The notes under the pieces: generated by a model
Database searches by the model: none
Seen by the model: the letters and a program-made list of their open reading frames with translations, nothing else
What the model was told of the DNA's origin: nothing
Position numbers and translations under genes: made by a program
NCBI GenBank assembly: GCA_965243165.1
Contig: OZ251535.1
Location: 2,703,371 to 2,767,370 of the forward strand
Source of the DNA: Candidatus Spongiisociaceae bacterium
Lineage (GTDB): Bacteria; Actinomycetota; Acidimicrobiia; Spongiisociales; Spongiisociaceae
Length of the DNA: 64,000 nt
Direction of reading: 5' to 3'
Shown here: in pieces, positions 3,425 through 41,004 of the stretch
How positions within the stretch are numbered: position 1 is the stretch's first letter
Layout: each line of letters begins with the position of its first letter

Positions 3425-3520
3425 GTGGAGAGAAGCCGCCGCCCGGCCGCCTTGGTCCCGGCCGAAGCCGGACCGACCGCAGCCTTGGCCCTGCCCTCGG
3501 CGGCGCAGGACAGCCCCCGC
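3425..3520 (+). pseudogene. Truncated 5' end (signal peptide only) of an LRR-SLH gene
   Basis: GTG-ERSRRPAALVPAEAGPTAALALPSAAQDSP is nearly identical in DNA to the starts at 4124 and 5742. A gagga RBS lies upstream, and the remnant runs into the dispersed repeat. Confidence 0.7.
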
Positions 3521-3908: not shown

Positions 3909-4123
3909 GCTCCTCAGGCCGCCCTCTCCGGTTTGCCAACTCTCCGAACAATGCGGGTTGGGCGCCGGTTCGTCTTGTATCCAGCAGATGATCTGTATAC
4001 CTGGTTCACTGCAATCGGCAACACCTGCGGTCGAAGACCGCTCGGCGGCGCGGCCCGCAGGCCGGGCGGGGCCGCCCAGGCCCACCTATGATCAGGGGTC
4101 CCATATGTGAGGAGCAAGCCCCT

Positions 4124-5608
4124 GTGAAGAGAAACCGCCGCCCAGCCGCCTTGGTGCTGGCCGCCGCCGGACTGACCGCAGCCTTGGCCCTGCCCTCGGC
4201 GGCGCAGAACAGCCCCGCCCCCGCCAGCTTGGATCCGGCCGGCTGCTCCAACGGAACTTTCGTATCCAACCCCTCCGCCAACCCGGGCCTCGCCGCCGAC
4301 TGCCGGGCGCTGGTCGCCGTCCGCAACCACTGGACCGCCGCCCCGGCGGCCGGCCACCCCCTCCTGACCTGGGGGCAGGGCGGCGCGGCTGTCATCACCT
4401 CTTGGAGGGGGGTAACGATCAGCGGCCGACGCGTCATCGCCGTCGATCTGAACGAAAGCGGGTTGGACGGCGCCGTCCCGCCCGAAATAGGCCGGCTCAC
4501 CGAACTCGCAACGCTCGACCTGAGCGGCAACCAGCTGACCGGGCCGCTGCCGCCTGAAATCGGCGGGCTCGCCAACCTCGAGCTGCTCATCTTGGAAGAC
4601 AACCAACTGACCGCCCTGCCGCCCGAAATCGGCCAGCTCACCAAACTCGCCAGGATCTATCTGGAAGACAACCAACTGACCGCCCTGCCGCCCGAAATCG
4701 GCCGGCTCACCGGACTCATAAGGCTCGATGCGGACGGCAACCGACTGACCAGTATTCCGTCCGAGATAGGCGGGCTCACCAAACTCACCAGCATCGACCT
4801 AGACGGCAACCAACTGACCCAGCTTCCGCCCGAGATAGGCCGGCTCACCGAGCTCAAGAGCCTCCATCTGGACGGCAACCTGCTGACCGAACTGCCGGCC
4901 GAATCAGGCCGGCTCGTCAATCTGAAGATTCTCAGCCTGAGGCGCAACCAGCTGACCGAACTGCCGCCCCAACTCAGCCGGCTCACCAGCCTCGAATGGC
5001 TCTATCTGGACGGCAATACTCTGTCGAGCCCCATCCCGCCGGAACTGGCGGACCAGCTTTGGCCCGAGTTCTGCGACGATGACAACAGCGGCCACGAATG
5101 GACCATCGAGCAAATCGCCCGCTGGGGGATCACCCTCGGCTGCGGCAACGGCGACTTCTGCCCCGGCGACGCCATCACCCGCAGCCAGATGGCCGCCTTC
5201 CTGCACCGGGCCGTCACCCACCGCTCAGGGGAACCCGCCGGCCCGGCCTCGGGGGGCAACCTCGCCGACGTAGACCAAGACGCCTGGTACCGGCCCTACG
5301 CCCAATGGGCGGCAGCCGCCGGGGTGGTGAGAACACCGGACGGAATGTTCGACCCCGGCGGGGAGGTCACCCGGGCGGACATGGCCGAAATGCTCACCGC
5401 CGCCTTTGACCACATCACCCCGCCCGCCGAAGCACGAGGAATCTTCACCGACATGGCAGACCAACCCGACGGCGTCGTCCGGGCCGCCGAAGCCCTCCGA
5501 ACAGCCGGAATAACCGCAGGATGCTCCGACAACCCCCTCCGCTACTGCCCCGACCAACCCGTAACCAGAGCCCAGATGGCCTCCTTCTTCTACCGCGCCC
5601 TGTCATAA
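4124..5608 (+). CDS. Secreted leucine-rich-repeat protein with C-terminal S-layer homology (SLH)-like domains
   Basis: gaggag RBS before GTG 4124. Signal peptide KRNRRPAALVLAAAGLTAALALPSAAQ, Cys cap CSNG...LAADC, about 10 LRRs (LxxLxLxxNxLTxLPPEIG), three SLH-like motifs ITRSQMA, VTRADMA and VTRAQMA. Confidence 0.9.
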   Translation: MKRNRRPAALVLAAAGLTAALALPSAAQNSPAPASLDPAGCSNGTFVSNPSANPGLAADCRALVAVRNHWTAAPAAGHPLLTWGQGGAAVITSWRGVTISGRRVIAVDLNESGLDGAVPPEIGRLTELATLDLSGNQLTGPLPPEIGGLANLELLILEDNQLTALPPEIGQLTKLARIYLEDNQLTALPPEIGRLTGLIRLDADGNRLTSIPSEIGGLTKLTSIDLDGNQLTQLPPEIGRLTELKSLHLDGNLLTELPAESGRLVNLKILSLRRNQLTELPPQLSRLTSLEWLYLDGNTLSSPIPPELADQLWPEFCDDDNSGHEWTIEQIARWGITLGCGNGDFCPGDAITRSQMAAFLHRAVTHRSGEPAGPASGGNLADVDQDAWYRPYAQWAAAAGVVRTPDGMFDPGGEVTRADMAEMLTAAFDHITPPAEARGIFTDMADQPDGVVRAAEALRTAGITAGCSDNPLRYCPDQPVTRAQMASFFYRALS

Positions 5609-5741
5609 CCGGCCATCAAGCCCCCCCCCGGTGGGGCGCGGAAGACACCCGCTCGCAAACCCCGTGAAATCAGCCGGCAACGCCGAAGGCCCCCTGCGGT
5701 GTTCTGTAGACTGGCAACAGCCGCCCTGAGGAGCTGCCTCC

Positions 5742-8700
5742 TTGAACAGAACCCGCCGCCCGACCGCCTCGGTCCTCGCGGCGGCCGGACTGACCGCACT
5801 CTTGGCCCTGCCCTCGGCGGCGCAGGACAGCCCCGCCGTCCCCGACCTGGACCCGGCCGACTGCTCCAACGGAACATTCGTATCCAACCCCTCCGCCAAC
5901 CCGGGCCTCGTCGCCGACTGCCGGGCGCTGGTCGCCGTCCGCAACCACTGGACCCGCCACCCCGACAACGCCGGCCTGTCTGTCTATCATCCTTTGCTGT
6001 CCTGGGGGAAAGAAGACCCAGATGACGCAATCTACGACACAGATGACAGCATCTACGACACCGTTGACATCACCTCCTGGCACGAAGTATCCGTATCAGC
6101 AGAACCCCAACTTCGCCCTCGGGTAACTAGCCTTACCCTTGATACCGCCAATATAACCGGCACTATACCACCAGAAATCAGCCAACTAACTAACCTCAAA
6201 CGCCTCAGCCTGGGCGGCAACCAACTAACCGGACCAATACCACCAGAAATCGGCCAACTTACCAACCTCCGCGAGCTCAGCCTGGGCGGCAACCAACTCA
6301 CCGGCACTATACCACCAGAAATCGGCCAACTTACCAACCTCCGCGAGCTCAGCCTGGGCGGCAACCAACTCACCGGACCAATACCACCAGAAATCGGCCA
6401 ACTTCCAAACCTACTTGTGCTTAGGCTAAGTTATAACGAGCTGACCGGACCAATACCACCAGAACTAGGACAACACCCCAATCTTTTTAGGCTCAATCTG
6501 AGCTACAACCAACTGACTGGACTAATACCACCAGAACTAGGACAACTCCCAAACCTCAAATACCTCCACCTAGAGTCCAACCAACTCACCGGACCAATAC
6601 CACCAGAACTAAACCAACTGATCAATCTCACAGATCTCTACCTAGAGTCCAACCAACTGGCTGGACCAATACCACCAGAACTAGGACAACTCACTTACCT
6701 CGAAGGGCTTTACCTGAGTAACAACCAACTCACCGGACCAATACCACCAGAACTAGGACAACTGGACAACCTCTTAACACTAGACCTCAGTTCCAACAAG
6801 CTGACCGGACCAATACCACCAGAACTAGGACAACTCCCAAACCTCTCTAGGCTCAAACTGGAAAACAACCAACTCACCGGACCAACACCAGTACTCTCCG
6901 TCGCCGACCTGAACCCTGACAACTGCTCCAACGAAACCTTCGTATCTGACCCCTCCGCCAACCCGGGCCTCGTCGCCGACTGCCGAGCGCTGGTCGCCGT
7001 CCGCAATCACTGGACCCGCCACCCCGACAACGCCGACCTCTCTATCCACGGCTTACGGTCCTGGGGATACAGAAAAACCGTCGACATCACCTCCTGGTAC
7101 GGAGTATCCGTTTCAGCAGATCCCCATCTTCCCCCTCGGGTAGAATCTATTATTCTAGGGCGTTATATAAGCGGTACTATCCCACCCGAAATTGGCCAAC
7201 TCACCAACCTCAAAGAGCTCATCCTGAAGAACGATCTGACCGGACCAATACCATCCGAAATCGGACAACTAACCAAACTCGAAAACCTAGATCTGAGCCA
7301 CAATCAATTCACCGGACCAATACCATCCGAAATCGGACAACTAACCAAACTCAAAAATCTAGTAATGAGAAACACCCAACTCACCGGGAGAATACCATCC
7401 GAAATCAGCCAACTCACCAACCTAAAATACCTCTTCCTAGAGTCCAACCAACTCACCGGACCAATACCGCTTGAAATCAACCACCTCACCAACCTCGCAA
7501 ACCTTGACCTGAGCCACAATCAATTCACCGGACCAATACCATCCGAAATCGGCCAACTCACCAACCTCACCAACCTCGACCTGAGCCACAACCAACTGAC
7601 CGGACCAATACCGCCAGGGATCAGCCAACTCACCAACCTCACAAAACTAGATCTCAGCTCCAACCAACTGACCGGTACACCACCAGATACCTCCCAACTC
7701 ACCAACCTCGCAATACTCAACCTCAGTTCCAACCAACTGACTGAACCAATACACACCGCCAGTACTGACCTGAATCCAGACCATTGCTCCAACGGACTCT
7801 TCGTACCCGACCCCTCCGACAACCCGGGCCTCGTCGCCGACTGCCGGACGCTGGCCGCCTTCCACAATCACTGGATCCACCGCCTTCCTCCTCGGTCATC
7901 CATCTTGACCTGGGGAAGAAGCAACACCATCAAGATCGCCTCTTGGAGCGGAATAACGATCAACGAGGGGCGCGTAACCACCCTTGATCTAGCCGGCGAA
8001 AAGTTAGCAGGTCCCATCTCGCCCGAATTAAGCCAACTCACCAACCTCACCAACCTCAACCTAAGTCGCAACCAACTCACCGGACCAATACCCACCCACC
8101 TCAGCCAACTCACCAACCTCACCAACCTCAACCTAAGTCGCAACCAACTCACCGGACCAATACCCACCCACCTCAGCCAACTCACCAACCTCCGCGAGCT
8201 CAACCTAAGCGGCAACCAACTCACCGGACCAATACCCACCCACCTCAGCCAACTCACCAACCTCCGCGAGCTCAACCTAAGCGGCAACCAACTCACCGGA
8301 CCAATACCATCCGAAATCGGCCAACTCACCAACCTTCGTGAGCTGTCCCTGAGGCACAATCAACTAACCCAACTACCACCAGAAATCGGCCAACTCACCA
8401 ACCTCAGATGGCTGTCTTTATATAAAAATCAATTCACCGGACCAGTGCCATCCGAAATCGGCCAACTCACCAAACTCGAAAACCTAGATCTGAGCCACAA
8501 TCAACTAACCCAACTACCACCAGAAATCGGCCAACTCACCAACCTCCAATATCTTGACCTAGAGTCCAACCAACTCACCGGACCAATACCACCAGAGATC
8601 GGCCAACTCACCAACCTCAAAACACTTTACATACACAACAACCAACTCACCGGATCAACACCACCAGAGATCGGCCAACTCACCAACCTCAAAACACTTT

Positions 8701-9779
8701 ACATACACAACAACCAACTCACCGGACCAATACCATCCGAAATCGGCCAACTCACCAACCTCGAAGAGCTCGTCCTTAGAAACAATCAACTCACCGGACC
8801 AATACCACCAGAGATCGGCCAACTCACCAACCTCAAATACCTCCTCCTAGAGTTCAACCAACTGACCGGATCAATACCACCAGAGATCGGCCAACTCACC
8901 AACCTCAAAACACTGCACATATACAGCAACCAACTCACCGGACCGATACCCACCCACCTCGATCAACTCACCAACCTCGCCAGCCTCGACCTGAGCGGCA
9001 ATCAACTGACCGGACCGTTGCCGCCGGAAATCAGCCAACTCACCAATCTATATTTCTTGGAGCTGAGTTGCAATGCCTTGACAGGACCAATACCGTCTGA
9101 GATCCTTCGACTCACCCGCCTTGGACGGCTCTATCTGGACGGCAACCATCTGACGGGCGCCGTCCCGCCGGAGCTAGAAGATCGATTGTGGCCCGCGTTC
9201 TGTGACGATGAAGACAGCGGCCACGAAGGGAGCATCGAGAACTTAGCCCGCTGGGGAATCATCCTCGGCTGCGGAAACAGCAACTACTGCCCCGGCAACC
9301 CCATCACCCGAAGCCAGATGGCCGCCCTCCTGCACCGGGCCGTCAGCCAGAGACATTCAGGAGAACCCGCCCCGGTTCCAGGAACGAACCTGGGCGATGT
9401 GGAAGAAGATGCCTGGTACCGACGCTATGCGGAGTGGGCGGTCGGCGCCGGAGTGATGAAAGCGCCGAACGGAAGGTTCGACCCCGGCGGAGCGGTCACC
9501 CGGGCAGACATGGCCGAAATGCTCACCGCCGCCTTCGACCACATCACCCCGCCCGCCGAAGCACGAGGAATCTTCACCGACATGGCAGGCCATGCCAACC
9601 GAGTGGTCCGAGCCGCCGAAGGTCTCCAAGCCAGGAGAATCGCCAAAGGATGCTCCGAAAACCCCCTACGCTACTGCCCAGACCAGCCCGTCACCAGAGC
9701 ACAGACGGCAACCTTCTTCTACCGCACCCTGAACTATCATCCACCCGGTTGGGACTACGGATTCCTGCCCGGCGGATAA
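5742..9779 (+). CDS. Large secreted LRR protein (three capped LRR modules, about 37 repeats) with C-terminal SLH-like domains
   Basis: gaggag RBS before TTG 5742, signal peptide, three caps of the form LxPxxCSNxxFVxxPSxNPGLVADC. Mostly 24-aa plant-like LRRs (LxxLxLxxNQLTGPIPPEIGQLTN). SLH motifs ITRSQMA, VTRADMA and VTRAQTA. Confidence 0.92.
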   Translation: MNRTRRPTASVLAAAGLTALLALPSAAQDSPAVPDLDPADCSNGTFVSNPSANPGLVADCRALVAVRNHWTRHPDNAGLSVYHPLLSWGKEDPDDAIYDTDDSIYDTVDITSWHEVSVSAEPQLRPRVTSLTLDTANITGTIPPEISQLTNLKRLSLGGNQLTGPIPPEIGQLTNLRELSLGGNQLTGTIPPEIGQLTNLRELSLGGNQLTGPIPPEIGQLPNLLVLRLSYNELTGPIPPELGQHPNLFRLNLSYNQLTGLIPPELGQLPNLKYLHLESNQLTGPIPPELNQLINLTDLYLESNQLAGPIPPELGQLTYLEGLYLSNNQLTGPIPPELGQLDNLLTLDLSSNKLTGPIPPELGQLPNLSRLKLENNQLTGPTPVLSVADLNPDNCSNETFVSDPSANPGLVADCRALVAVRNHWTRHPDNADLSIHGLRSWGYRKTVDITSWYGVSVSADPHLPPRVESIILGRYISGTIPPEIGQLTNLKELILKNDLTGPIPSEIGQLTKLENLDLSHNQFTGPIPSEIGQLTKLKNLVMRNTQLTGRIPSEISQLTNLKYLFLESNQLTGPIPLEINHLTNLANLDLSHNQFTGPIPSEIGQLTNLTNLDLSHNQLTGPIPPGISQLTNLTKLDLSSNQLTGTPPDTSQLTNLAILNLSSNQLTEPIHTASTDLNPDHCSNGLFVPDPSDNPGLVADCRTLAAFHNHWIHRLPPRSSILTWGRSNTIKIASWSGITINEGRVTTLDLAGEKLAGPISPELSQLTNLTNLNLSRNQLTGPIPTHLSQLTNLTNLNLSRNQLTGPIPTHLSQLTNLRELNLSGNQLTGPIPTHLSQLTNLRELNLSGNQLTGPIPSEIGQLTNLRELSLRHNQLTQLPPEIGQLTNLRWLSLYKNQFTGPVPSEIGQLTKLENLDLSHNQLTQLPPEIGQLTNLQYLDLESNQLTGPIPPEIGQLTNLKTLYIHNNQLTGSTPPEIGQLTNLKTLYIHNNQLTGPIPSEIGQLTNLEELVLRNNQLTGPIPPEIGQLTNLKYLLLEFNQLTGSIPPEIGQLTNLKTLHIYSNQLTGPIPTHLDQLTNLASLDLSGNQLTGPLPPEISQLTNLYFLELSCNALTGPIPSEILRLTRLGRLYLDGNHLTGAVPPELEDRLWPAFCDDEDSGHEGSIENLARWGIILGCGNSNYCPGNPITRSQMAALLHRAVSQRHSGEPAPVPGTNLGDVEEDAWYRRYAEWAVGAGVMKAPNGRFDPGGAVTRADMAEMLTAAFDHITPPAEARGIFTDMAGHANRVVRAAEGLQARRIAKGCSENPLRYCPDQPVTRAQTATFFYRTLNYHPPGWDYGFLPGG

Positions 9780-9871
9780 CCGTTGATGCAGAATAGATTC
9801 TCTTCAAGTTGGGGCGCGTCCTCAGCGGCGAAGCTCCGATTTGCAGTCGTCTCCGTCCGCCGGGCGGAGCC

Positions 9872-10399
9872 TCAGGGTTCCTTGGGGGCTTTCTTTCTGA
9901 GGGTTCGCAGCCAACGCCGCCATCCTTTGGGCTCAGCGGGTTCCGGGCTGGATTCTATCGGATCCGGCTGATCCGCCGACTGGCTCCAAGCGAAGGGCAT
10001 CCGGTCTCTCACCAATACGGCGGTTCCATCCGGGTCGGCGTCCAGCCACCCGGCGGCCTGCCCCTCCTCCATCATCCGCCAGATACGGGCCGCGGGCGCG
10101 GGAAATAAGACAGCCAGCGCTTCTTCCAGTTCTCCAACCGTCCGATCCAACCTGATCCTCGGGCTCCACTCCTCCGTTGTGTACAAACACATGCAGATCA
10201 CCAGCTCCCACTCCCAGATCGGTCCGTTCCAGAAACCGGGTTCAGTCAACTCCTCTGGAAGGCCGTTGAGCGCGTCGAGGCAATACCACTTGCCGCACGT
10301 TGTACACGCCGACAGGCCGCTGTCCGACTTGGGCACCGCCCGCGCCAGGCGCGCCCGGGAGACAGAACCGTCTATCCGTTTGTTACGAGGCCGCGCCAT
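9872..10399 (-). CDS. Hypothetical protein with an N-terminal CxxC (CTTCGKWYC)
   Basis: 175-aa ORF filling the gap between the LRR gene and the aminotransferase. Globular-looking composition; no family recognised. Confidence 0.5.
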   Translation of the reverse strand: MARPRNKRIDGSVSRARLARAVPKSDSGLSACTTCGKWYCLDALNGLPEELTEPGFWNGPIWEWELVICMCLYTTEEWSPRIRLDRTVGELEEALAVLFPAPAARIWRMMEEGQAAGWLDADPDGTAVLVRDRMPFAWSQSADQPDPIESSPEPAEPKGWRRWLRTLRKKAPKEP

Positions 10400-19913: not shown

Positions 19914-22127
19914 CTAATTACCCGCCTCTCTCAAGAGAACATTGGCCAGCTCAATACCAGCTTGCTTGTCTATAGGAGAATTGCTGCCGCTGTACGATTT
20001 TGCTGGCTCTATACAATTCTGACAACCTCTTCTGCACTCACAGTTTGTAGCAATTTCTATTCCTTTTTCTAATACCGAGGGTCAAACATCAAATAGCTTT
20101 CTGGCAATACCGATACCACCTGAATAACTCTCATAATTAAAAACGGTAGGCTGTTCACGCAACTTCGAATAGCTACTGCTATCAAATCGGTCGGCCGGAA
20201 TAACGAACATCGATCCCACTCGTAACAAATGTTCTAAAGCACCAATACCCCTGGTAATTAGTTCACTAGGTACCCTCCATTCTACCCAAAAAGCATGCCG
20301 GTCGTTTTCATACAAAGTCATCTGAGTGCCGCCCCAATCAACCACATTACCGCGCTCATCTATAATATTATAGCCTGTGAGGTTTGAGACAATATCCAGT
20401 GAACCGTAATATATTACAGCATTTTTGTGTACGATTTGGTCATAAATATCGCCAATGTAAGAGTAGGTATAGAAAGTAGGTTCGGTACGAAGATGTGGTT
20501 CTGCATCCTTAAGTGCGACCGCTTTTTCCTCATGAGATGTTACACGATAATTCTTGCCCAAAAACGTAAAAATAGCACCAATATATGCTTCCCTCAACCT
20601 CCGAAGCTCAGAGATTTGACCAATTTTTTTTCCTCCATATTTGAGGTCATATGACTGCCCAATACTTCCTCGTATATTCAGACGATAATGAGGTCTATAC
20701 CGACGAGGTAATTCTCTATCATCAGCCTTAGTAGCTTGATAGAACTTGTCGCCAAGAATACTTTTCTCTGAAGGAAGAACATATCCTTCTGTCTCCACGT
20801 TGATCAAATCCAGATGCCTTTTAATCAAGGATTCGTTGGCTGGATCAATCACCAACGAATCAAATCTTTGCTTCAGAAAGCCATCTAAGTTGCGAACAAA
20901 GAACCTATCTATAGGATCGTTCATCGCATACAACAATACGAAAGCATCTCTATCCCAGCCTCTTCCTGCTCGTCCAATCTGTTGCCAAGCAGACATAACA
21001 CTAGGCGGAAAACCCGCCATGATTACTCCATTTAGACCCCCAATATCTAAACCTAATTCTAGGGCATTAGTTGTTAGTACAACTCTAATAGATCCCTCGC
21101 GTATTTCTTGCTGTATTATTTGTTTTTCATCACCTTCCATATCGGCATGAAATGGTGATATTAAACTAGGATCAAAACCTATTTCCTCTGCTTTGGCACG
21201 ACTAGCCTTACACGCCTCTTCCAGAAATTTCTTTGTCTGGCAAAATATGAGTACTCGGAAATTGCTTTGAAGACAGGCTATCGCGGCCATTTCAATTCTC
21301 CATTTAAGTATATCTCTATACCTGTAGTCAGGTATTTTTGGATCTACAAATATAAAGTGTCTTCTAGGTCGAAAAGATCTGGCTGTAACGACTTGTATAG
21401 TATCTCTTCCGGTTAGATTCTTAGCATGCTCCAATGGATTTGCACACGTGGCAGTTGACAAGAAAAAAGTCGGAGAAACCCCTGACCGATTTAAGTGCAG
21501 AAAAAAGCGCCTCAAGAGCAATGCCATATTGCTACCAAAAAATCCACGATATTCATGCATCTCATCAAGAACGACATAGCGGAGATTCCGCAAGAAACTT
21601 GTCCATTGGTCCCTCCATCCCAAAAAGGACATGTTGAGGTACTCTGGATTAGTCAATAGAATATCAAGCGGACTAGCTTTAAGAGCCTTCCTAGAAGATT
21701 CGTCAACATTGCCGTCATATGGCCAAGATTCAAATCCAAGTGGTTTGGCTATACTCTGAATCTGCTCTCTCTGATCGAAGGCCAAAGCCTTCATAGGATA
21801 TATCATCAAAGCATGTGAAGCTCTTTTACGCTTTAAAATATGAAGCATTGAAGCCGTAAAAGCCAAGGTCTTACCGCTAGCCGTTGGCGACTCCAAGACT
21901 ACATCCTTGCCATTTATTGATTGAGTTATCGCGTCGGCTTGGTGTTGATAAGGCCGCTGGAACCCATTATCTATCAACACTTTACGGATAGAAGTATCCA
22001 ATTGACGGGGCCACTCTTCGGCATACGGAGGGCGCAGAGACTCAAGGGTCCTGACAGTTATCCGGTCATCACCTCGTAAGGCATCAACCTCTTTGAGCTT
22101 TTCAACAAAACCTTTTACGTCCATCAT
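19914..22127 (-). pseudogene. YprA/SftH-family DEAD/DEAH helicase with a C-terminal DUF1998-like Cys cluster, interrupted by one in-frame TGA at 20082-20084
   Basis: SPTASGKT, TNPEYL, LDEMHEY, SATCAN, ALELGLDIG, QQIGRAGR. The same frame continues past the TGA as PSVLEKGIEIATNCECRRGCQNCIEP...AGN to a TAG at 19914. Strongly AT-richer than its flanks. Confidence 0.85.
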
Positions 22128-35129: not shown

Positions 35130-38100
35130 GTGACGGACCGCTTCTTCGAGCAGCCCGTTCTCAACTCCCCCTACGAGCAACCGGGCCGGCATTGGGGGCT
35201 TGACGACGCAGGCCAACCAACTCAGCAGATCATCGGGGGCCGCAGACCAGCGGCTTTCATCTCCCCGATCCCGAAACCGAAGAAGCTGAAGGGGTCGTCC
35301 ACCGAGCAGGCCGTCTTGGTGCTCGACGAAGGCGAGGGCCTGTCCACCGAAGAGCAACAGTACGGTGAGCACCACGCGACTATCAACGAGATTCGGCGGC
35401 AGGTGGGGCGCTGGCGGGCTGCGCCGGACCCGAACGGATGGAGGGTAACTCCGGAAACCGCCCGCCTGCTTCAGCATTGGCGCAGCCACCCCTTCCGCGA
35501 TATCAGACCCTTCTTCTGCCAGCTCGAGGCGGTGGAGACCGTCATCTGGCTCACCGAGGCGGCGCCCGGCCTCGGCAAGGCAGGCCGGGACTTCATCGAT
35601 TACTTGGACGCCGCCAACAGCGGCGCCAATCCGGATCTGCCGCGGTTGGCTCTCAAGCTGGCCACCGGCGCGGGGAAGACCACCGTGATGGCTATGTTGA
35701 TAGCCTGGCAGACGATCAACGCGGTCCGCCGGCCTAGGAGCGACCGATTCACACGCGGTTTCCTGGTGGTAACTCCCGGCATCACCATCAAGGACCGCCT
35801 GCGCGTCCTTCAGCCGAACGACCCCGACAGCTACTACCGCAGCCGCGAGCTGATACCGGTGGACCTGCTTCCAGACCTGGGCAGGGCGAAGATCGTCATC
35901 ACCAATTACCACGCCTTCAAGGCAAGAGAGCTGTTGAACCTGCGGAAAGGAACCCGCTCGTTGCTCCAGGGACGGGGCAAGGAACCGACCACGACGGAAA
36001 CCGAAGGCCAAATGCTGCAACGGGTGATACCCGAACTTCTGGGCCTGAAAAAGGTAATGGTGATCAATGATGAAGCACATCATTGCTATCGCGAGAAACC
36101 GGGTGAGAAGGAGGAACCGAAGCTCAAAGGGGACGACAAAAGGGAGGCTGAAGCAAACCGGGAAGCCGCCCGGCTGTGGATCTCCGGCATCGAAGCAGTT
36201 GGCCGAAAGTTGCGCCTCAAGCGGGTGATCGATCTTTCTGCCACACCCTTTTTCTTGAGCGGATCGGGCTACGCGGAGGGAACGCTTTTCCCTTGGACGA
36301 TGAGCGACTTCTCGCTCATGGACGCCATCGAATGCGGGATCGTCAAGCTCCCCCGGGTTCCGGTGGCCGACAACATCCCGGACGGCGAGATGCCGAAGTT
36401 CCGAAACCTCTGGACTCACATCCGCGCCAAGATGCCGAAAAAGGGAAAGGGCAAGGCTGAGCTCGACCCCCTCAGCCTCCCCATAGAGCTGCAGACCGCG
36501 CTGGAAGCCCTCTACGGACACTACGCCAAGACCTTCGACCTGTGGTCAGAAGCAGGCATCGAATCTCCTCCTTGCTTCATCGTGGTTTGCAACAACACTT
36601 CTACTTCCAAGCTGGTCTACGACTACATCTCCGGCTTCCACCGGCAGAACGGCGACGGCTCGACAAAGCTCGAACAGGGACGCTTGGAGCTGTTCCGCAA
36701 CTTCGACGAGGCGGGCAACCGGTATGCAAGGCCGCGTACCCTGCTGATCGACAGCAGGCAGTTGGAATCGGGCGACGCTCTCGACAAAAACTTCCGCAAG
36801 ATGGCCGCCGCCGAGATCGAGCGCTTCAGACGGGAGATCATCGAGCGCACCGGGGACCGCCGCCAGGCCGAGAACCTCAGCGATCAGGATCTACTCCGCG
36901 AGGTCATGAATACGGTGGGAAGGCCGGGCCGACTCGGGGGTTCGATTCGCTGCGTCGTCTCGGTCGCAATGCTGACGGAAGGCTGGGACGCCAACACCGT
37001 CACCCATATCCTGGGTGTGCGCGCCTTTGGCACGCAGCTTCTCTGTGAGCAGGCGATCGGGCGGGCGCTGCGCCGCCAGTCCTATGATCTGAACGACAAC
37101 GGCCTCTTCAACGTCGAGTACGCCGATGTGCTCGGCATACCCTTCGACTTCACCTCCAAGCCAATCGTCGCTCCGCCCCAGCCGCCGCGCAAGACTATCC
37201 GTGTCAAGGCGGTATCCCCCGACCGTGACGCCTGTGAAATACGCTTCCCCCGCGTCTCGGGCTATCGGGTCGAGTTGCCTGAAGAGCGCCTCACCGCGGA
37301 ATTCAACGACGATTCCACCCTCGTGCTCACACCAGATCTGGTCGGTCCTTCGATTACCCGCAACGAAGGAATAATCGGGGAGGGAGTCGATTTGAACCTG
37401 CAGCACCTCGATGAAGTACGACGGTCCACGTTGCTTTTTCACTTGACGAAACGACAGATCGAGACGAAATGGCGCGATGCGGATGAACAACCCAAGCCCC
37501 ACCTGTTCGGTCAGCTCAAGCGGATCACCCGCCAATGGCTGGACGGTCACCTCGTCTGCAAGGGAAACACACATCCCGCCCAGCTGCTCTATCTGTCACT
37601 TGGCGATATGGCCTGCGAGAGGATCACCGCGGCCATCACACGGGCGGAGATCGACAAGCGTCCGGTCAAGGCCATTCTGGACCCTTACAATCCCATCGGC
37701 TCGACCCGATATGTCGCCTTCAATACCTCTAAACTCAACCGATGGAAGACCGATCCGCGCTGTTGCCATGTCAATTGGGTCATCTGTGACAGCAATTGGG
37801 AATCAGAGTTCGCACGGGTCGCAGAGAAGCATCCTCGCGTGCGTTCCTACGTCAAGAACTACGGCCTCGGGCTGGAGGTTCCCTACCGTTACGGGTCCGT
37901 TTCCCGAACCTACATACCCGACTTCGTAGTATTGGTGGACGACGGTCGGGGCGGCGATGATATTTTGCATCTCGTAGTCGAGATAAAGGGATATCGAGGG
38001 GAAGACGCCAAGGAGAAGCGGAATACTATGGAGACCTACTGGGTGCCGGGAGTGAATCGGCACGGCGGCTTCGGACGTTGGGATTTCGTCGAGTTCACGG

Positions 38101-38156
38101 ATCCTTTCGAAATAGAGACCCAATTCAACAAGGTTGTAGAGAGATGCCTTCCATGA
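35130..38156 (+). CDS. Type III-like restriction endonuclease Res subunit (SF2 helicase plus PD-(D/E)xK nuclease)
   Basis: LATGAGKT, NDEAHHCY, LSATP, MLTEGWDA, C-terminal YIPDF...VVEIKG. Adjacent to a Mod gene. Confidence 0.88.
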   Translation: MTDRFFEQPVLNSPYEQPGRHWGLDDAGQPTQQIIGGRRPAAFISPIPKPKKLKGSSTEQAVLVLDEGEGLSTEEQQYGEHHATINEIRRQVGRWRAAPDPNGWRVTPETARLLQHWRSHPFRDIRPFFCQLEAVETVIWLTEAAPGLGKAGRDFIDYLDAANSGANPDLPRLALKLATGAGKTTVMAMLIAWQTINAVRRPRSDRFTRGFLVVTPGITIKDRLRVLQPNDPDSYYRSRELIPVDLLPDLGRAKIVITNYHAFKARELLNLRKGTRSLLQGRGKEPTTTETEGQMLQRVIPELLGLKKVMVINDEAHHCYREKPGEKEEPKLKGDDKREAEANREAARLWISGIEAVGRKLRLKRVIDLSATPFFLSGSGYAEGTLFPWTMSDFSLMDAIECGIVKLPRVPVADNIPDGEMPKFRNLWTHIRAKMPKKGKGKAELDPLSLPIELQTALEALYGHYAKTFDLWSEAGIESPPCFIVVCNNTSTSKLVYDYISGFHRQNGDGSTKLEQGRLELFRNFDEAGNRYARPRTLLIDSRQLESGDALDKNFRKMAAAEIERFRREIIERTGDRRQAENLSDQDLLREVMNTVGRPGRLGGSIRCVVSVAMLTEGWDANTVTHILGVRAFGTQLLCEQAIGRALRRQSYDLNDNGLFNVEYADVLGIPFDFTSKPIVAPPQPPRKTIRVKAVSPDRDACEIRFPRVSGYRVELPEERLTAEFNDDSTLVLTPDLVGPSITRNEGIIGEGVDLNLQHLDEVRRSTLLFHLTKRQIETKWRDADEQPKPHLFGQLKRITRQWLDGHLVCKGNTHPAQLLYLSLGDMACERITAAITRAEIDKRPVKAILDPYNPIGSTRYVAFNTSKLNRWKTDPRCCHVNWVICDSNWESEFARVAEKHPRVRSYVKNYGLGLEVPYRYGSVSRTYIPDFVVLVDDGRGGDDILHLVVEIKGYRGEDAKEKRNTMETYWVPGVNRHGGFGRWDFVEFTDPFEIETQFNKVVERCLP

Positions 38157-38184
38157 CGCTCGACGCTGCAGCCCTCGAAGAAGG

Positions 38185-41004
38185 ATGAAAAAAAACATGG
38201 CGCAGACACCAAAGAAAACCCAGAAAACCAAGAAGGTAGAGACCCTCACCCACGACGAGGCTTCGCGGCTCAACATTCCCACCGCCGAATATCAGCCTGT
38301 GATAGAAGATGAACTCCGCAACCCGATCCAGGTCGCCTATACCAACCGCAACCGAGACCTCGATCCACAACTCGTCTGGAAGGGCAAGGAAGTAGTGGAC
38401 TGGTCCGAGTTGGTGGTTCCGGCGCCGCCGCTCTTCATCCAAGAAAAGGTGCATCCCAAGGTGTTGATAGACGATCTGATACGTCGAAGCAAAGAAATGA
38501 CAGAGACCGAACAAGAGCAGTCTGGTAAGCAGGCTGACCTCTTCGGTGACTTCAACGGAGTTATCGACCAGGAAGCCCGAACCGAATTCTACCAGCACGA
38601 CGCCAACTGGTCGAACCGAATGATCCTCGGCGACAGCCTGTATGTAATGGCATCGCTGGCCGAGCGTGAGAACTTGAGAGGCAAGGTCCAATGCATCTAC
38701 ATAGACCCTCCCTACGGGATCAAGTTCAACTCCAACTTCCAGTGGTCAACCACCAGCCGAGACGTCAGGGACGGCAAAGCCGAACACATCACCCGCGAGC
38801 CCGAGCAAGTCAAGGCCTTCCGCGACACTTGGCGCAACGGAATACATTCCTACCTCACCTACCTACAGGACCGGCTGACCGTTGCCAGGGATCTGCTCAC
38901 AGAGAGCGGAAGCATCTTCGTCCAGATCGGCGACGAAAACGTACACCGTGTACGAACCTTGATGGACGAAGTGTTCGGCGATGACAACTTCGTCAGCCTC
39001 ATCACCTACCGCACCAGCAGCGGGACGACACAGGCCAGCTCGGTAAAGCGTATATCCGATTACATCGTTTGGTATTGCAAGGACAAATCTCAGATCAAGT
39101 TCCGAAGGTTGCTCAAGGAGAAGGACGTGAACACCAAGATGTATAATCAGTTGGAACTAGAGCATGGCGTTCGACGGCCTATGACCACTAAGGAAAGAAA
39201 GGATCCGTCTACACGCCCAAACAATTCCAGACCATACCGTAAATTACCAGTTCACTCTATGGCAGCTGGAAACCATGAGCCAAGAGAGTTCCAAGAAACC
39301 GTCTGGGAAATACCGCCAATGCGAAGTTGGCGGTATTCGCCAGACGGTTTCTCGAGGCTCTCTAAGGCTCAACGTATCCAGCCGGACAGAACAGCTTTGA
39401 GCGCCTTATACTATCACGATGATTACGCCGCTTATGAGATTCCCAACCTCTGGGCTGACACCGGACCGGAAATAGCAAAATCCTACGTGGTGCAGACATC
39501 CACCCTCCCTTTGAGCCGCGTAGTTCTAATGACGACCGATCCCGGTGATCTTGTACTCGACCCTACCTGCGGCTCGGGCACCACGGCCTACATCGCAGAA
39601 CAATGGGGGCGGCGTTGGATCACGATCGATACCTCTCGCGTCGCCCTGACTTTAGCGCGATCCCGCCTTATGGGCGCCCGCTATCCCTATTATATACTAA
39701 CAGACAGCCCCGAAGGGCAACACAAGAAGGCAGAAATCACCCGCACTGAACCATCGGAGATGCCTACCTACGGTGACATCCGGCAGGGGTTCGTGTATCA
39801 ACGCGTCCCGCACATCACCCTTCGTTCCATCGCCCACAACACCGAGATCGACGTCATCTGGGAGCAATTCCAAGAACGGCTAGAACCATTGCGTAAACAA
39901 TTGAACGATATCCTCGGCCGTGCTTGGAAGGAGTGGGAGATACCGCGTGACGCCGATGATACTTGGTCCGAGCACGCCAGAAAGATCCACACCGAATGGT
40001 GGAAGCAGCGCATCGCCCGCCAGCAAGAGATCGATGCATCTATCGCCGCCAAAGCCGACCATGAATATTTGTATGACAAGCCCTACGAAGATCGGAGGAG
40101 GGTTCGAGTTGCCGGGCCATTCACCGTCGAAAGCATCTCGCCTCACCGCACCCTGTCCGTTGACGAAGAAGACGAGCTGATTGACCATGCGGCTGATACC
40201 AGGCTCGGCTACGAAAAGCACGACTTCGATACTTTGATCCTAGACAACCTCAGTACCGCCGGCATACAGCAGGCCCACAAAGAAGACCGCATATCCTTTT
40301 CTGCAGTTGCCCCTTGGCCGGGCAATTTGGTCTGCGCCGAAGGTAGCTACTATGAAGACGATACTGACGATACTAACGCTAGTTCTAAGAAGCGGGCCGC
40401 CATCTTCATCGGACCGGAATTCGGCACGGTCTACAGACCGGACCTGGCGGCCGCCGCCCGCGAGGCCGCCGAAGCGGAGTTTGACATTTTAATTTCCTGT
40501 GCCTTCAGCTACGATGCCCACTCGAGCGAATTAGCCAAACTGGGCAAAGTTCCTATTCTGAAGGCCCATATGAACGCCGATCTGCACATGGCCGCAGATC
40601 TGAGAAACACAAAGAAGGGCAACCTCTTCGTGGTCTTCGGCGAACCCGATATCGACATCCTCGACGCCCCCCTGGATCAGCTCCAGGTCAGGATCAATGG
40701 GGTCGACGTGTATCACCCTTCTAACGGCGAAATACGCAGCGACAATACCGACGGCATCGCTTGTTGGTTCATCGACACCGACTACAACGAGGAGAGCTTC
40801 TTCGTGCGGCATGCCTACTTCCTCGGCGCCAACGACCCCTACAAGGCTCTCAAGACCACCCTCAAAGCCGAGATCAACCGAGAAGCCTGGGAAACTCTTC
40901 GAAGCGAAATCTCTCGACCGTTCGACAAACCGTCTTTGGGCCGAATCGCCGTCAAGGTGATCAACCATCTGGGAGATGAAGTGATGAAGGTGTTCCGAAT
41001 ATGA
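38185..41004 (+). CDS. Type III-like site-specific adenine DNA methyltransferase (Mod); alternative start at 38197
   Basis: Motif IV IYIDPPYG precedes motif I VLDPTCGSGTT (beta class); ILGDSL. Confidence 0.9.
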   Translation: MKKNMAQTPKKTQKTKKVETLTHDEASRLNIPTAEYQPVIEDELRNPIQVAYTNRNRDLDPQLVWKGKEVVDWSELVVPAPPLFIQEKVHPKVLIDDLIRRSKEMTETEQEQSGKQADLFGDFNGVIDQEARTEFYQHDANWSNRMILGDSLYVMASLAERENLRGKVQCIYIDPPYGIKFNSNFQWSTTSRDVRDGKAEHITREPEQVKAFRDTWRNGIHSYLTYLQDRLTVARDLLTESGSIFVQIGDENVHRVRTLMDEVFGDDNFVSLITYRTSSGTTQASSVKRISDYIVWYCKDKSQIKFRRLLKEKDVNTKMYNQLELEHGVRRPMTTKERKDPSTRPNNSRPYRKLPVHSMAAGNHEPREFQETVWEIPPMRSWRYSPDGFSRLSKAQRIQPDRTALSALYYHDDYAAYEIPNLWADTGPEIAKSYVVQTSTLPLSRVVLMTTDPGDLVLDPTCGSGTTAYIAEQWGRRWITIDTSRVALTLARSRLMGARYPYYILTDSPEGQHKKAEITRTEPSEMPTYGDIRQGFVYQRVPHITLRSIAHNTEIDVIWEQFQERLEPLRKQLNDILGRAWKEWEIPRDADDTWSEHARKIHTEWWKQRIARQQEIDASIAAKADHEYLYDKPYEDRRRVRVAGPFTVESISPHRTLSVDEEDELIDHAADTRLGYEKHDFDTLILDNLSTAGIQQAHKEDRISFSAVAPWPGNLVCAEGSYYEDDTDDTNASSKKRAAIFIGPEFGTVYRPDLAAAAREAAEAEFDILISCAFSYDAHSSELAKLGKVPILKAHMNADLHMAADLRNTKKGNLFVVFGEPDIDILDAPLDQLQVRINGVDVYHPSNGEIRSDNTDGIACWFIDTDYNEESFFVRHAYFLGANDPYKALKTTLKAEINREAWETLRSEISRPFDKPSLGRIAVKVINHLGDEVMKVFRI

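What the first reader, a model, noticed from the sequence alone, without database searches (positions are those of the whole stretch)
5742..9200. Modular surface LRR protein with signs of repeat-cassette copying (diversifying receptor-like)
Seen: three Cys-capped solenoids of about 11, 9 and 17 repeats. The scaffold NQLTGPIPxEIGQLTNL is nearly fixed while the concave-face positions vary (ELSLGG, YLHLES, TLYIHN, WLSLYK and others). There are adjacent near-exact 72-bp duplications (about 8030-8320 and 8590-8740). One 33-bp cassette (aaactcgaaaacctagatctgagccacaatcaa) is identical at 7275 and 8472 in different modules. 23-aa and 24-aa repeats are mixed. Established: the 24-aa LxxLxLxxNxLxGxIP type is the plant-specific LRR class, and eukaryote-like LRR proteins are enriched in host-associated bacteria such as sponge symbionts. 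Inference: unequal recombination or gene conversion generates a variable, wall-anchored binding repertoire.
Basis: partly seen in the sequence, partly recalled or inferred. Interest (0 to 1): 0.62.

Follow-up and report, generated by a model that had tools for sequence, protein, structure and literature searches.

The report
Three-module plant-type LRR surface protein
A sponge-associated actinobacterium carries an intact gene for a cell-wall-tethered protein built from three plant-receptor-like leucine-rich-repeat solenoids that has recently grown by copying single 72-bp repeats. It is a real but fairly ordinary member of the "eukaryote-like" surface proteins already known to be common in sponge symbionts.

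Summary
Window 5742-9779 (+) is one intact 1345-aa ORF. It has a signal peptide, three modules (two-Cys cap plus 10, 8 and 16 full plant-type LRRs) and a C-terminal SLH cell-wall anchor.

Four exact period-72 tandem duplications and a 36-bp stretch shared between modules are real. Variation between repeats is concentrated at the five x positions of LxxLxLxxN.

The gene is a lineage-specific tandem paralog of the adjacent 494-aa LRR-SLH gene, in a complete 3.19-Mb genome related to Candidatus Spongiisociaceae. It belongs to an 8-gene family; four members carry a metzincin-like protease domain.

Repeat copying as an evolutionary process is supported. Alleles of two relatives differ by whole 24-aa units while the rest of each protein stays 97-99.7% identical.

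Diversifying selection on the concave face is not supported. In an orthologue pair and an allele pair those positions are the most conserved (dN/dS 0.075 and 0.22).

I found no programmed diversification machinery.

Most likely role: a multivalent surface binding protein for host or matrix ligands.

The parts
5729..5734 (+). Shine-Dalgarno-like GAGGAG, 7 nt before the TTG start
   Evidence: read directly
5742..9779 (+). Intact CDS of 1345 aa: signal peptide, three cap+LRR modules, SLH anchor
5742..5825 (+). Signal peptide (about aa 1-28, MNRTRRPTASVLAAAGLTALLALPSAAQ). GC is 74%, like the rest of the genome
   Evidence: By inspection. It is 80% identical to the neighbouring gene's leader. Composition
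5826..6158 (+). Cap 1 (two invariant Cys, W-rich) plus the partial first LRR. It contains a 21-bp tandem repeat (6015-6069) that encodes a DTDDSIY-type loop insertion
6159..6878 (+). Module 1: LRR units 1-10, all 24 aa
6879..7172 (+). Cap 2. Its first ~150 nt are 91% identical to cap 1 and to the neighbouring gene's cap
7173..7742 (+). Module 2: LRR units 11-18 (units 11 and 18 are 23 aa)
   Evidence: AF2 model of cap 2 + module 2 has pLDDT 94
7743..8009 (+). Cap 3, the most diverged cap (68% nt identity to cap 1)
8010..9155 (+). Module 3: LRR units 19-34 (units 24 and 26 are 23-aa 'NQLTQLPPEIG' units, like those of the neighbouring gene)
9156..9779 (+). C-flank plus three SLH-type repeats (each has a TRxQ/TRAD motif), then a 15-aa extension past the family's usual ...YRALS end
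   Evidence: Compared with the neighbouring gene's tail: dS 0.42, dN/dS 0.36
6237..6376 (+). Exact period-72 tandem duplication (68-nt self-match)
8031..8192 (+). Exact period-72 tandem duplication (90-nt self-match)
8140..8308 (+). Exact period-72 tandem duplication (97-nt self-match). It overlaps the previous one but is in a different register
8588..8726 (+). Exact period-72 tandem duplication (67-nt self-match)
7272..7307 (+). 36-nt stretch (KLENLDLSHNQ) identical to 8469-8504. Unit 12 (module 2) and unit 25 (module 3) are 92% identical, but the units flanking them are only 65-71% identical
4124..5608 (+). Adjacent parent-like paralog: 494 aa, GTG start, cap + 8 LRRs of 23 aa + SLH. It has an orthologue in the sister species
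3425..3520 (+). Orphan, decayed signal-peptide fragment of a third LRR gene
   Evidence: tblastn 59.5% identity over 42 aa; read directly
9870..9887 (+). Terminator-like hairpin about 90 nt after the stop codon
   Evidence: consensus match only

Best explanation
Shown: the locus encodes an intact, exported, SLH-tethered protein of a sponge-associated Acidimicrobiia bacterium (relatives are named Candidatus Spongiisociaceae). It displays three plant-type LRR solenoids in series, each closed by its own two-Cys N-cap.

Shown: it is a lineage-specific tandem paralog of the adjacent 494-aa LRR-SLH gene. It is absent from the same site in two congeneric species.

Shown or strongly inferred: it grew by duplication of whole cap+LRR modules. 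It is still growing by single-unit (72-bp) tandem duplications, through unequal crossing-over or replication slippage between near-identical scaffold sequences. The cap and 5' sequences show patchy gene conversion.

Shown for two relatives, inferred for the target: arrays with such homogeneous scaffolds gain, lose and reorder whole units between strains, while arrays with diverged units stay fixed.

Shown in relatives: the residues on the concave face are kept by purifying selection, not diversified.

Inferred: the protein is a multivalent surface binding protein, of the adhesin or 'eukaryote-like' host-interaction kind. Its three concave faces would bind extracellular protein or peptide ligands of the sponge host or its matrix. 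New specificities would arise slowly, by unit turnover at the population level, not by a programmed switch.
For: Architecture.

Fold: the AF2 model of cap 2 + module 2 has pLDDT 94.2 and pTM 0.91. The top 50 PDB matches are almost all plant LRR ectodomains (MIK2 E 7e-19, TM 0.73; also FLS2 and PGIP).

Anchor: SLH E 2.3e-17. A PF04230 pyruvyl transferase is present. About 45 further SLH-tail genes lie in the genome.

Taxon and habitat: the closest cap-bearing genomes are Ca. Spongiisociaceae MAGs. LRR proteins are reported as enriched in sponge-symbiotic Acidimicrobiia (PMC11706023).

Family: there are 8 genes with 10 caps in this genome. Among 40 relatives, caps occur in only two genera (plus weak matches in one further genome), at 9-19 per genome and often several per ORF. 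The cap profile finds 782 representatives in 1.84e9 proteins.

Origin: the sister species G001 has only the orthologue of the neighbouring gene between OppF and the ThDP enzyme. G002 has no LRR gene there. The target's 5' end is 88% nt identical to the neighbouring gene, and 8589-9731 is collinear with it at 73%. The tail has dS 0.42 and dN/dS 0.36, so the gene is under constraint.

Unit copying: four exact period-72 duplications. Adjacent units are 76.9% identical against 70-71% for others, p = 2e-4.

Population turnover in relatives: in cluster P0146 the LRR region averages 86% identity (minimum 71%), with a one-unit deletion and a unit reshuffle, against 97-99.7% elsewhere. An allele (P0325) of this genome's paralog 1966712 has one extra 24-aa unit. 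Paralogs with diverged units show no indels.

Concave face conserved: dN/dS 0.075 and 0.22.
Against: No allele or orthologue of the target itself was found, so turnover of this particular array in a population is extrapolated from relatives.

No ligand, expression or localisation data exist; the host-binding role is inference from family resemblance and habitat.

The low GC content (49-52% in the LRR parts against 66% for the genome) and the G-depleted third codon positions are not explained by this account.

Scaffold codons differ at 43% of synonymous sites. Most units are therefore old, and only a minority of events are recent.
Confidence: 0.7

Rival explanations
1. Programmed, high-frequency diversification. 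On this reading the gene is a contingency or antigenic-variation locus that reshuffles LRR cassettes within a clone, in a VLR-like, DGR-like or pilin-like way, to produce a variable receptor repertoire.
For: The scaffold is conserved and the concave positions are variable. There are exact unit duplications and a 36-nt stretch shared between modules. Earlier notes report poly-G switches and mosaic surface genes elsewhere in this genome. A C9 tract lies 121 nt upstream of the start.
Against: There are no silent LRR donor cassettes: tblastn finds LRRs only inside the 8 intact genes.

The only reverse transcriptase is 1.8 Mb away, with no LRR copy near it.

The neighbours are Opp ATPases, an aminotransferase and a ThDP enzyme, with no recombinase.

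The best nucleotide match to any other paralog is 76%.

Scaffold pS of 0.43 shows that most units are old.

Concave residues are conserved between alleles and orthologues of relatives.
Confidence: 0.06
2. The LRR-coding DNA is a recent horizontal acquisition from a lower-GC donor, such as another sponge symbiont or a eukaryote. On this reading it was grafted between a native leader and a native SLH tail, and its peculiar composition is foreign rather than home-grown. This can coexist with the main explanation.
For: The LRR parts have 49-52% GC and only 8-10% G at third codon positions. Gln is 100% CAA and Pro 82% CCA, against 85% CAG and 3% CCA in neighbouring genes. The leader has 74% GC.

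The other low-GC islands in the window are restriction-modification and helicase genes, typical imports.

The same cap + plant-type LRR + metalloprotease arrangement occurs in Pseudohongiella/Pseudomonadales MAGs.

The five low-GC paralogs lack close orthologues in congeners, while the two high-GC ones have them.
Against: No donor was found: the best full-length hits are at most 50% identical.

The caps and the tail have intermediate composition rather than showing a sharp boundary.

The 3' third of the gene is collinear with the native neighbour at 73%.

The bias is towards A and C, not simply low GC. Repeated amplification of one founder unit could produce that.
Confidence: 0.3
3. Nutritional or substrate-capture role rather than host recognition. 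On this reading the LRR solenoids hold extracellular proteins such as sponge matrix. The family's wall-bound metzincin paralogs digest them, and the adjacent Opp system imports the resulting peptides.
For: Four of the 8 family members fuse cap+LRR to an HExxHxxGxxH metallopeptidase-like domain.

The target and its parent gene lie directly downstream of an Opp/Dpp ABC transporter operon on the same strand. The parent keeps that position in the sister species.
Against: The target itself has no protease domain. The third congener has the Opp genes without any LRR gene. The Pfam match for the protease is below the family threshold. There is no expression or biochemical evidence.
Confidence: 0.2
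4. The exact 72-bp duplications are assembly artefacts, that is mis-counted repeat units.
For: Because 72 is a multiple of 3, a wrong unit count would not break the reading frame. The target protein is absent from the protein collection, even though its neighbour and three paralogs from the same 3,189,970-bp contig are present.
Against: The genome is one closed 3.19-Mb contig. Its sister records are chromosome-level MAGs.

The duplicated blocks are only 140-170 nt, far shorter than long reads.

The duplications sit in different registers, and near-exact pairs with 2-3 substitutions also exist.

Unit indels recur in independent assemblies of relatives.
Confidence: 0.05

Closest known systems
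Plant LRR receptor-kinase / receptor-like protein ectodomains (MIK2, FLS2, ERL1, PGIP)
   Same: Both have the 24-residue LxxLxLxxNxLtGxIPxxixxLxx repeat and a helical N-cap with a Cys pair ahead of the first repeat. The fold matches: Foldseek E down to 7e-19, TM 0.73, 30-38% identity.
   Different: The target is bacterial, with no transmembrane helix or kinase. It is tethered by SLH repeats and has three capped solenoids in series. Its cap reaches only E 0.1 and 13 bits against Pfam LRRNT_2, whose cut-off is 20.7. Module ends have no Cys-rich C-cap.
LRR-class 'eukaryote-like proteins' of sponge symbionts, reported enriched in symbiotic Acidimicrobiia (PMC11706023)
   Same: It matches the same Pfam families used to define the class (PF00560, PF12799, PF13855). 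The bacterial class and habitat are the same.
   Different: That work counts domains per genome. In the passages I searched it does not mention SLH or S-layer anchoring, and I did not read the rest. I therefore cannot say whether it describes the cap, the multi-module layout, the metzincin fusions or unit turnover.
The 664-aa SLH-anchored plant-type LRR paralog of the same genome (earlier finding e1-1115508) and the adjacent 494-aa gene
   Same: Same leader, cap, LRR and triple-SLH plan.
   Different: Those genes have one module with diverged units, constant length in all alleles or orthologues, and native GC in the 494-aa gene. The target has three modules, near-uniform scaffolds, four very recent unit duplications and no orthologue.
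Listeria internalins (InlA/InlB)
   Same: Both are surface-anchored bacterial LRR proteins with an N-cap that bind host proteins through the concave face (own knowledge).
   Different: Internalins have 22-residue repeats, an Ig-like inter-repeat domain, LPXTG or GW anchoring and one solenoid (own knowledge). None of these features is present here.
Lamprey variable lymphocyte receptors
   Same: Both have a constant LRR scaffold with variable concave beta-strand residues and cassette-like units.
   Different: VLRs are assembled somatically from flanking silent cassettes with a cytidine deaminase (own knowledge). This genome has no silent LRR cassettes, and the changes here are germline and population-level.

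Membership tests
Plant-specific (PS) LRR class | Repeat length of 24 residues | tested here: met
   30 of 34 units are 24 aa and 4 are 23 aa
Plant-specific (PS) LRR class | Consensus LxxLxLxxNxLxGxIPxxLxxLxx | tested here: met
   L13, L16, L18 and N21 are 88-100% conserved. G1 is present in 32/32 units, I3 in 28/33 and P4 in 33/34
Plant-specific (PS) LRR class | Plant-type N-terminal cap (Pfam LRRNT_2) | tested here: inconclusive
   E 0.1 and 13.3 bits against a cut-off of 20.7. The AF2 model does show a long cap helix packed before the first repeat, and it aligns with plant ectodomains
Plant-specific (PS) LRR class | Fold of plant LRR ectodomains | tested here: met
   The best PDB matches are MIK2, CARD1, FLS2, ERL1 and PGIP, with probability 1.00 and TM 0.68-0.73
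SLH-anchored cell-surface protein | SLH domain(s), usually three, at one terminus | tested here: met
   PF00395 scores E 2.3e-17 with two stretches passing on their own. The third is seen by inspection (three TRxQ/TRAD motifs)
SLH-anchored cell-surface protein | N-terminal export signal | tested here: inconclusive
   The sequence has a basic n-region, a hydrophobic core and ...PSAAQ by inspection, and this leader is conserved in all 8 paralogs. No signal-peptide predictor was available
SLH-anchored cell-surface protein | Pyruvylated wall polymer made by a CsaB-type pyruvyl transferase | tested here: inconclusive
   One PF04230 match above the cut-off lies at genome 1243458-1244294. The family also matches in 9 of 14 control genomes, including E. 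coli, so it is not specific to CsaB
Sponge-symbiont LRR eukaryote-like proteins | Pfam LRR domains PF00560/PF12799/PF13855 in a sponge-associated bacterium | tested here: met
   Pfam matches. The nearest cap-bearing genomes are Ca. Spongiisociaceae MAGs. The definition is from PMC11706023. The host sample of this genome itself was not visible to me
Diversity-generating retroelement target | Nearby reverse transcriptase and a template repeat copy of the variable region | tested here: not met
   The only RVT_1 match is at genome position 912 kb, 1.8 Mb away. No LRR copy lies outside the 8 genes
Cassette-based antigenic variation (VLR / pilE-pilS type) | Silent donor cassettes outside the expressed gene | tested here: not met
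   tblastn with module 3 finds only intact paralog ORFs. The best nucleotide match elsewhere is 76%
Simple-sequence contingency locus | A hypermutable homopolymer or short repeat in the promoter or reading frame that sets expression | not tested
   A C9 tract lies at 5621-5629, 121 nt upstream. It is one of 92 C/G runs of at least 9 in the genome. There are no reads to test for length variation
Listeria internalin family | 22-residue LRRs followed by an Ig-like inter-repeat domain, with an LPXTG or GW anchor | tested here: not met
   The repeats are 24 aa, no such domains are found by Pfam, and the anchor is SLH

The most novel reading that the evidence does not exclude
Sponge-associated Acidimicrobiia may keep two kinds of wall-tethered plant-type LRR genes. 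'Frozen' arrays would have diverged units and a conserved binding face. 'Fluid' arrays would have a near-uniform scaffold at the nucleotide level, making them prone to whole-unit gain, loss and exchange. The fluid arrays, of which this three-module gene is the extreme case, would give each strain its own surface recognition pattern towards the host, or towards the substrates of the LRR-guided metzincin paralogs. This would be evolution by unit turnover, as in plant resistance-gene LRRs, acting in a bacterial symbiont.
Probability: 0.2. Interest if true: 0.65.

Novelty: new member of a known kind. Interest (0 to 1): 0.38.

Why it matters
Eukaryote-like repeat proteins are the main genomic signature of sponge symbiosis, yet almost none has a known ligand or a known mode of evolution.

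This locus, with its relatives, gives a concrete picture. A defined building block (two-Cys cap + plant-type LRR) is shared by Acidimicrobiia and Gammaproteobacteria MAGs, the former named for sponge association. It is tied to the wall by SLH and is sometimes fused to a metzincin-like protease.

The locus also separates two things that are easily confused. Positions that differ between repeats of one protein do differ strongly here. Positions that diverge between strains do not coincide with them. What changes between strains is the number and order of whole units.

This makes a specific, cheap test possible with existing long-read sponge metagenomes. It also points to three natural protein constructs for ligand fishing.

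Tried and rejected
Population variation of the target gene (nothing found):
- Exact look-ups of the target and of OppF found nothing.
- The target is not in the protein collection with either plausible start, although its neighbour and three paralogs from the same contig are.
- A search restricted to the non-repetitive SLH tail gave at most 61% identity.
- A JGI metagenome scan gave at most about 39% identity over long matches.

Other searches that did not help:
- The full-length homology search was swamped by generic LRR proteins, at most 50% identical and none with SLH.
- The repeat finder families were too coarse, so I computed maximal exact matches myself.
- A single-sequence AF2 model of the module 1 / cap 2 / module 2 junction had pLDDT below 50 across the cap and pTM 0.52. 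The relative orientation of the solenoids is therefore unknown.
- Cluster look-ups gave no names or habitat. One allele contig comes from a metagenome sample whose origin I could not read.

Readings rejected:
- Rejected: a diversity-generating retroelement target.
- Rejected: silent-cassette variation.
- Rejected: internalin membership.
- Weak Pfam hits to Hce2, ATP-synt_ab, COX5B and CUPID are repeat noise below their cut-offs.
- The between-repeat dN/dS of about 1.46 at variable positions is not evidence of positive selection: it is saturated and compares paralogous positions.
- The excess of differences at variable codons in young unit pairs (9 of 22, p = 0.026) rests on multi-base codon changes in one pair and is weak.

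Full report
**1. What is in the sequence**

Window 5742-9779 (+) is a single open frame of 1345 codons. It starts at TTG, 7 nt after GAGGAG. Pfam finds overwhelming LRR signal (LRR_1 E 3e-122, LRR_8 E 8e-92) and a C-terminal SLH domain (E 1.6e-13; 2.3e-17 on the tail alone, with two stretches passing on their own).

Parsing the protein gives these parts:
- A leader, MNRTRRPTASVLAAAGLTALLALPSAAQ.
- Cap 1, then 10 units of 24 aa.
- Cap 2, then 8 units (two of them 23 aa).
- Cap 3, then 16 units (two of them 23 aa).
- A tail with three SLH-type repeats.

The three caps align with seven more caps elsewhere in the genome. They share two invariant Cys, three Trp and an RV motif that leads into the first strand.

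**2. The repeat observations hold**

Entropy per repeat position is 0-1.5 bits on the scaffold (G-P-I-P-x-E-I-G-Q-L-T-N-L ... L. L .. N-Q-L-T). It is 2.35-3.2 bits at positions 14, 15, 17, 19 and 20, the exposed x's of LxxLxLxxN.

My search for maximal exact matches finds four exact period-72 tandem duplications:
- 8140-8308 (97-nt self-match)
- 8031-8192 (90 nt)
- 6237-6376 (68 nt)
- 8588-8726 (67 nt)

They lie in different registers of the unit. Each is therefore a separate event rather than one block copied several times.

The '33-bp cassette' is exact at both sites, with none expected in shuffles. It is in fact 36 nt long. It sits inside units 12 and 25, which are 92% identical as wholes, while the units flanking them are only 65-71% alike. 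This points to copying of a single unit between modules 2 and 3. A stretch of that length with no differences, within a 92% identical pair, is not in itself remarkable.

Adjacent units are more alike (76.9%) than units in random order (p = 2e-4). Modules are barely distinct from one another (+1.8%, p = 0.011), and 9 of 34 units have their nearest relative in another module.

**3. Whose gene it is**

The window lies in a closed 3.19-Mb contig with 66% GC. A profile of the cap finds its nearest relatives in chromosome-level MAGs named Candidatus Spongiisociaceae or 'uncultured Acidimicrobiia'.

Among 40 related genomes, strong matches to the cap occur only in the window's own genus and one other genus; one further genome has two weak matches. 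Those two genera carry 9-19 copies per genome, and several ORFs carry three, four or more caps.

In a library of 1.84 billion representative proteins, the cap profile hits 782, of which 219 are at E <= 1e-10. Many of these have multiple caps, including three-module proteins of 1140 and 1269 aa.

A published comparison reports LRR proteins as significantly enriched in sponge-symbiotic Acidimicrobiia (PMC11706023). The host sample of this particular genome was not visible to me.

**4. The family in this genome**

tblastn finds eight genes with the leader-cap-LRR-SLH plan. Four of them insert a domain with HEIGHxxGWPHSY between the LRR and SLH parts. This is the HExxHxxGxxH zinc motif of metzincins. 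The Pfam Reprolysin_4 match is only E 0.0045, below its cut-off.

The same cap + plant-type LRR + metalloprotease arrangement is present in Pseudohongiella/Pseudomonadales MAGs. The building block therefore crosses phyla.

About 45 further genes carry the same kind of SLH tail. A CsaB-family pyruvyl transferase is present, although that family is not specific to SLH anchoring.

**5. Fold**

An AF2 model of cap 2 + module 2, built on an alignment of nine family modules, has pLDDT 94.2 and pTM 0.91. The top 50 PDB matches are almost all plant LRR ectodomains: MIK2 (E 7e-19, TM 0.73), CARD1, FLS2, ERL1 and PGIP.

Assignment to the plant-specific LRR class is therefore met on repeat length, consensus and fold. 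The cap alone reaches only E 0.1 against Pfam LRRNT_2.

A single-sequence model of the module 1 / module 2 junction was too poor to show how the solenoids sit relative to each other.

**6. Origin of the gene**

The adjacent gene (4124-5608, 494 aa; this start is confirmed by an exact database entry) has the same plan, with eight 23-residue units.

The flanking genes are OppF and a ThDP enzyme. Between their orthologues, the sister species G001 has only the orthologue of this neighbouring gene. It is 74.7% identical, with the same eight units and no indel in the array. The third congener, G002, has no LRR gene there at all.

The relation of the target to the neighbouring gene differs along its length:
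- The target's first 234 nt are 88% identical to the neighbouring gene's 5' end.
- The target's last 1.1 kb is collinear with the neighbouring gene at 73%.
- The SLH tails differ by dS 0.42 with dN/dS 0.36, so the target is constrained and is not a decaying copy.
- The 5' ends, and caps 1 and 2, differ by only dS 0.12-0.15. This is the signature of later gene conversion.

An orphan, decayed leader fragment at 3425-3520 shows that the locus has lost at least one further copy.

The target is therefore a lineage-specific tandem paralog. It multiplied its cap+LRR module and keeps adding units.

**7. Is it 'diversifying'?**

Two questions must be kept apart.

(a) Unit turnover. Relatives do give direct evidence.
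- In a cluster of ten >=90%-identical variants of a sister-species homologue, the LRR region averages 86% identity (minimum 71%). One variant lacks exactly one 24-aa unit, and two have units inserted and replaced. The cap, protease and SLH parts are 97-99.7% identical.
- An allele of this genome's own paralog 1966712, whose units are almost as uniform as the target's, has one extra unit.
- Paralogs with diverged units (the 664-aa and 926-aa genes) show no indels among their alleles.
- The neighbouring gene keeps its unit count across species.

Uniform scaffolds thus go with unstable arrays, and the target is the most uniform of all.

(b) Selection on the concave face.
- Between repeats of the target, the variable positions give dN/dS of about 1.46. 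This is at saturation (pN 0.62), and it compares positions that are meant to differ within one binding surface.
- Scaffold codons differ at 43% of synonymous sites, with dN/dS 0.23. The uniform scaffold is therefore mostly maintained by selection, not by youth.
- Between true orthologues of the neighbouring gene, concave positions have dN/dS 0.075 against 0.55 for the rest of the LRR.
- Between alleles of paralog 1966712, the values are 0.22 against 0.53.

Where it can be measured, the concave face is the most conserved part of the repeat.

**8. Mechanism alternatives**

- No recombinase or reverse transcriptase lies near the gene. The only RVT_1 match is 1.8 Mb away.
- There are no silent LRR cassettes.
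- No other paralog is more than 76% identical at the nucleotide level.
- A C9 tract lies 121 nt upstream, one of 92 such runs of at least 9 in the genome. I could not test it.

Programmed diversification is therefore unlikely. Ordinary unequal crossing-over or slippage, plus patchy conversion, is sufficient.

**9. Unexplained composition**

The LRR parts have 49-52% GC and only 8-10% G at third codon positions. Gln is always CAA and Pro is 82% CCA. In neighbouring genes the figures are 85% CAG and 3% CCA. The leader has native composition, and the caps and tail are intermediate.

Other low-GC islands in the window are restriction-modification and helicase genes. The five low-GC paralogs lack close orthologues in congeners. 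A foreign origin of the repeat DNA is plausible, but no donor was found.

**10. Verdict**

It is wrong, or at least unsupported, about diversifying selection at concave positions and about any receptor-repertoire mechanism.

The gene is a new, unusually large and unusually fluid member of an unnamed but recurrent family of wall-tethered plant-type LRR proteins in sponge-associated bacteria. An earlier follow-up of a paralog in this genome reached a similar view.

Its function, surface binding of host or matrix ligands, is inferred and not shown.

Noticed in passing
genome C1:1966712-1969192, 2380156-2382861, 2511518-2514298, 2424598-2432151 (outside the window): Four paralogs carry a metzincin-like HEIGHxxGWPHSY domain between the plant-type LRR and the SLH anchor, which suggests LRR-guided wall-bound proteases. 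The Pfam Reprolysin_4 match is only E 0.0045.
   Followed up: partly
L012 3778-8439 (uncultured Pseudohongiella sp. MAG): A gammaproteobacterial protein has the same two-Cys cap, plant-type LRRs and a HEFGHNFSLAH metalloprotease domain. The cap+LRR block therefore seems to be shared across phyla among symbiont MAGs.
   Followed up: partly
window 3425-3520: An orphan, decayed LRR-gene signal peptide (MERSRRPAALVPAEAGPTAALALPSAAQ...) runs into unrelated sequence. It is a relic of a lost third copy at this locus.
   Followed up: partly
window 5621-5629: A C9 homopolymer lies in the 133-nt spacer between the two LRR genes, 121 nt before the target's start. The genome has 92 C/G runs of at least 9, and earlier notes link such runs to phase-variable surface genes.
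   Followed up: partly
window 6159-9155: Third codon positions of the LRR parts are strongly depleted in G (8-10%). Gln is 100% CAA, Pro 82% CCA and Ile 54% ATA, in a genome that otherwise prefers CAG, CCC/CCG and ATC. The cause is unknown.
   Followed up: partly
window 6015-6069: A 21-bp tandem repeat (2.6 copies) encodes a DDAIYDTDDSIYDT loop insertion found only in cap 1.
   Followed up: no
window 9735-9779: The target reads 15 codons (NYHPPGWDYGFLPGG) past the point where most family members end (...YRALS), so the usual stop has been lost. A conserved Met in the third SLH repeat is Thr here.
   Followed up: no
window 20082-22127, 35130-41004, 46824-49375: The other low-GC islands of the window are defence-type genes. 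They are a DEAD/Helicase_C protein (41% GC region), a ResIII helicase with an N6_N4 DNA methylase, and an Eco57I-type methylase next to a XamI restriction endonuclease (E 8e-89).
   Followed up: partly
window 4088-4124: The neighbouring LRR gene most likely starts at GTG 4124 (494 aa), not ATG 4088. The 494-aa product is the one on record, and GAGGAG precedes the GTG.
   Followed up: yes
L004 1-8943 (sister species G001): A protein of about 3000 aa alternates blocks of repeated ~100-aa domains with three cap+LRR modules, a metzincin-like domain and an SLH tail. Other relatives have ORFs of 10,000-12,700 aa with several caps.
   Followed up: no
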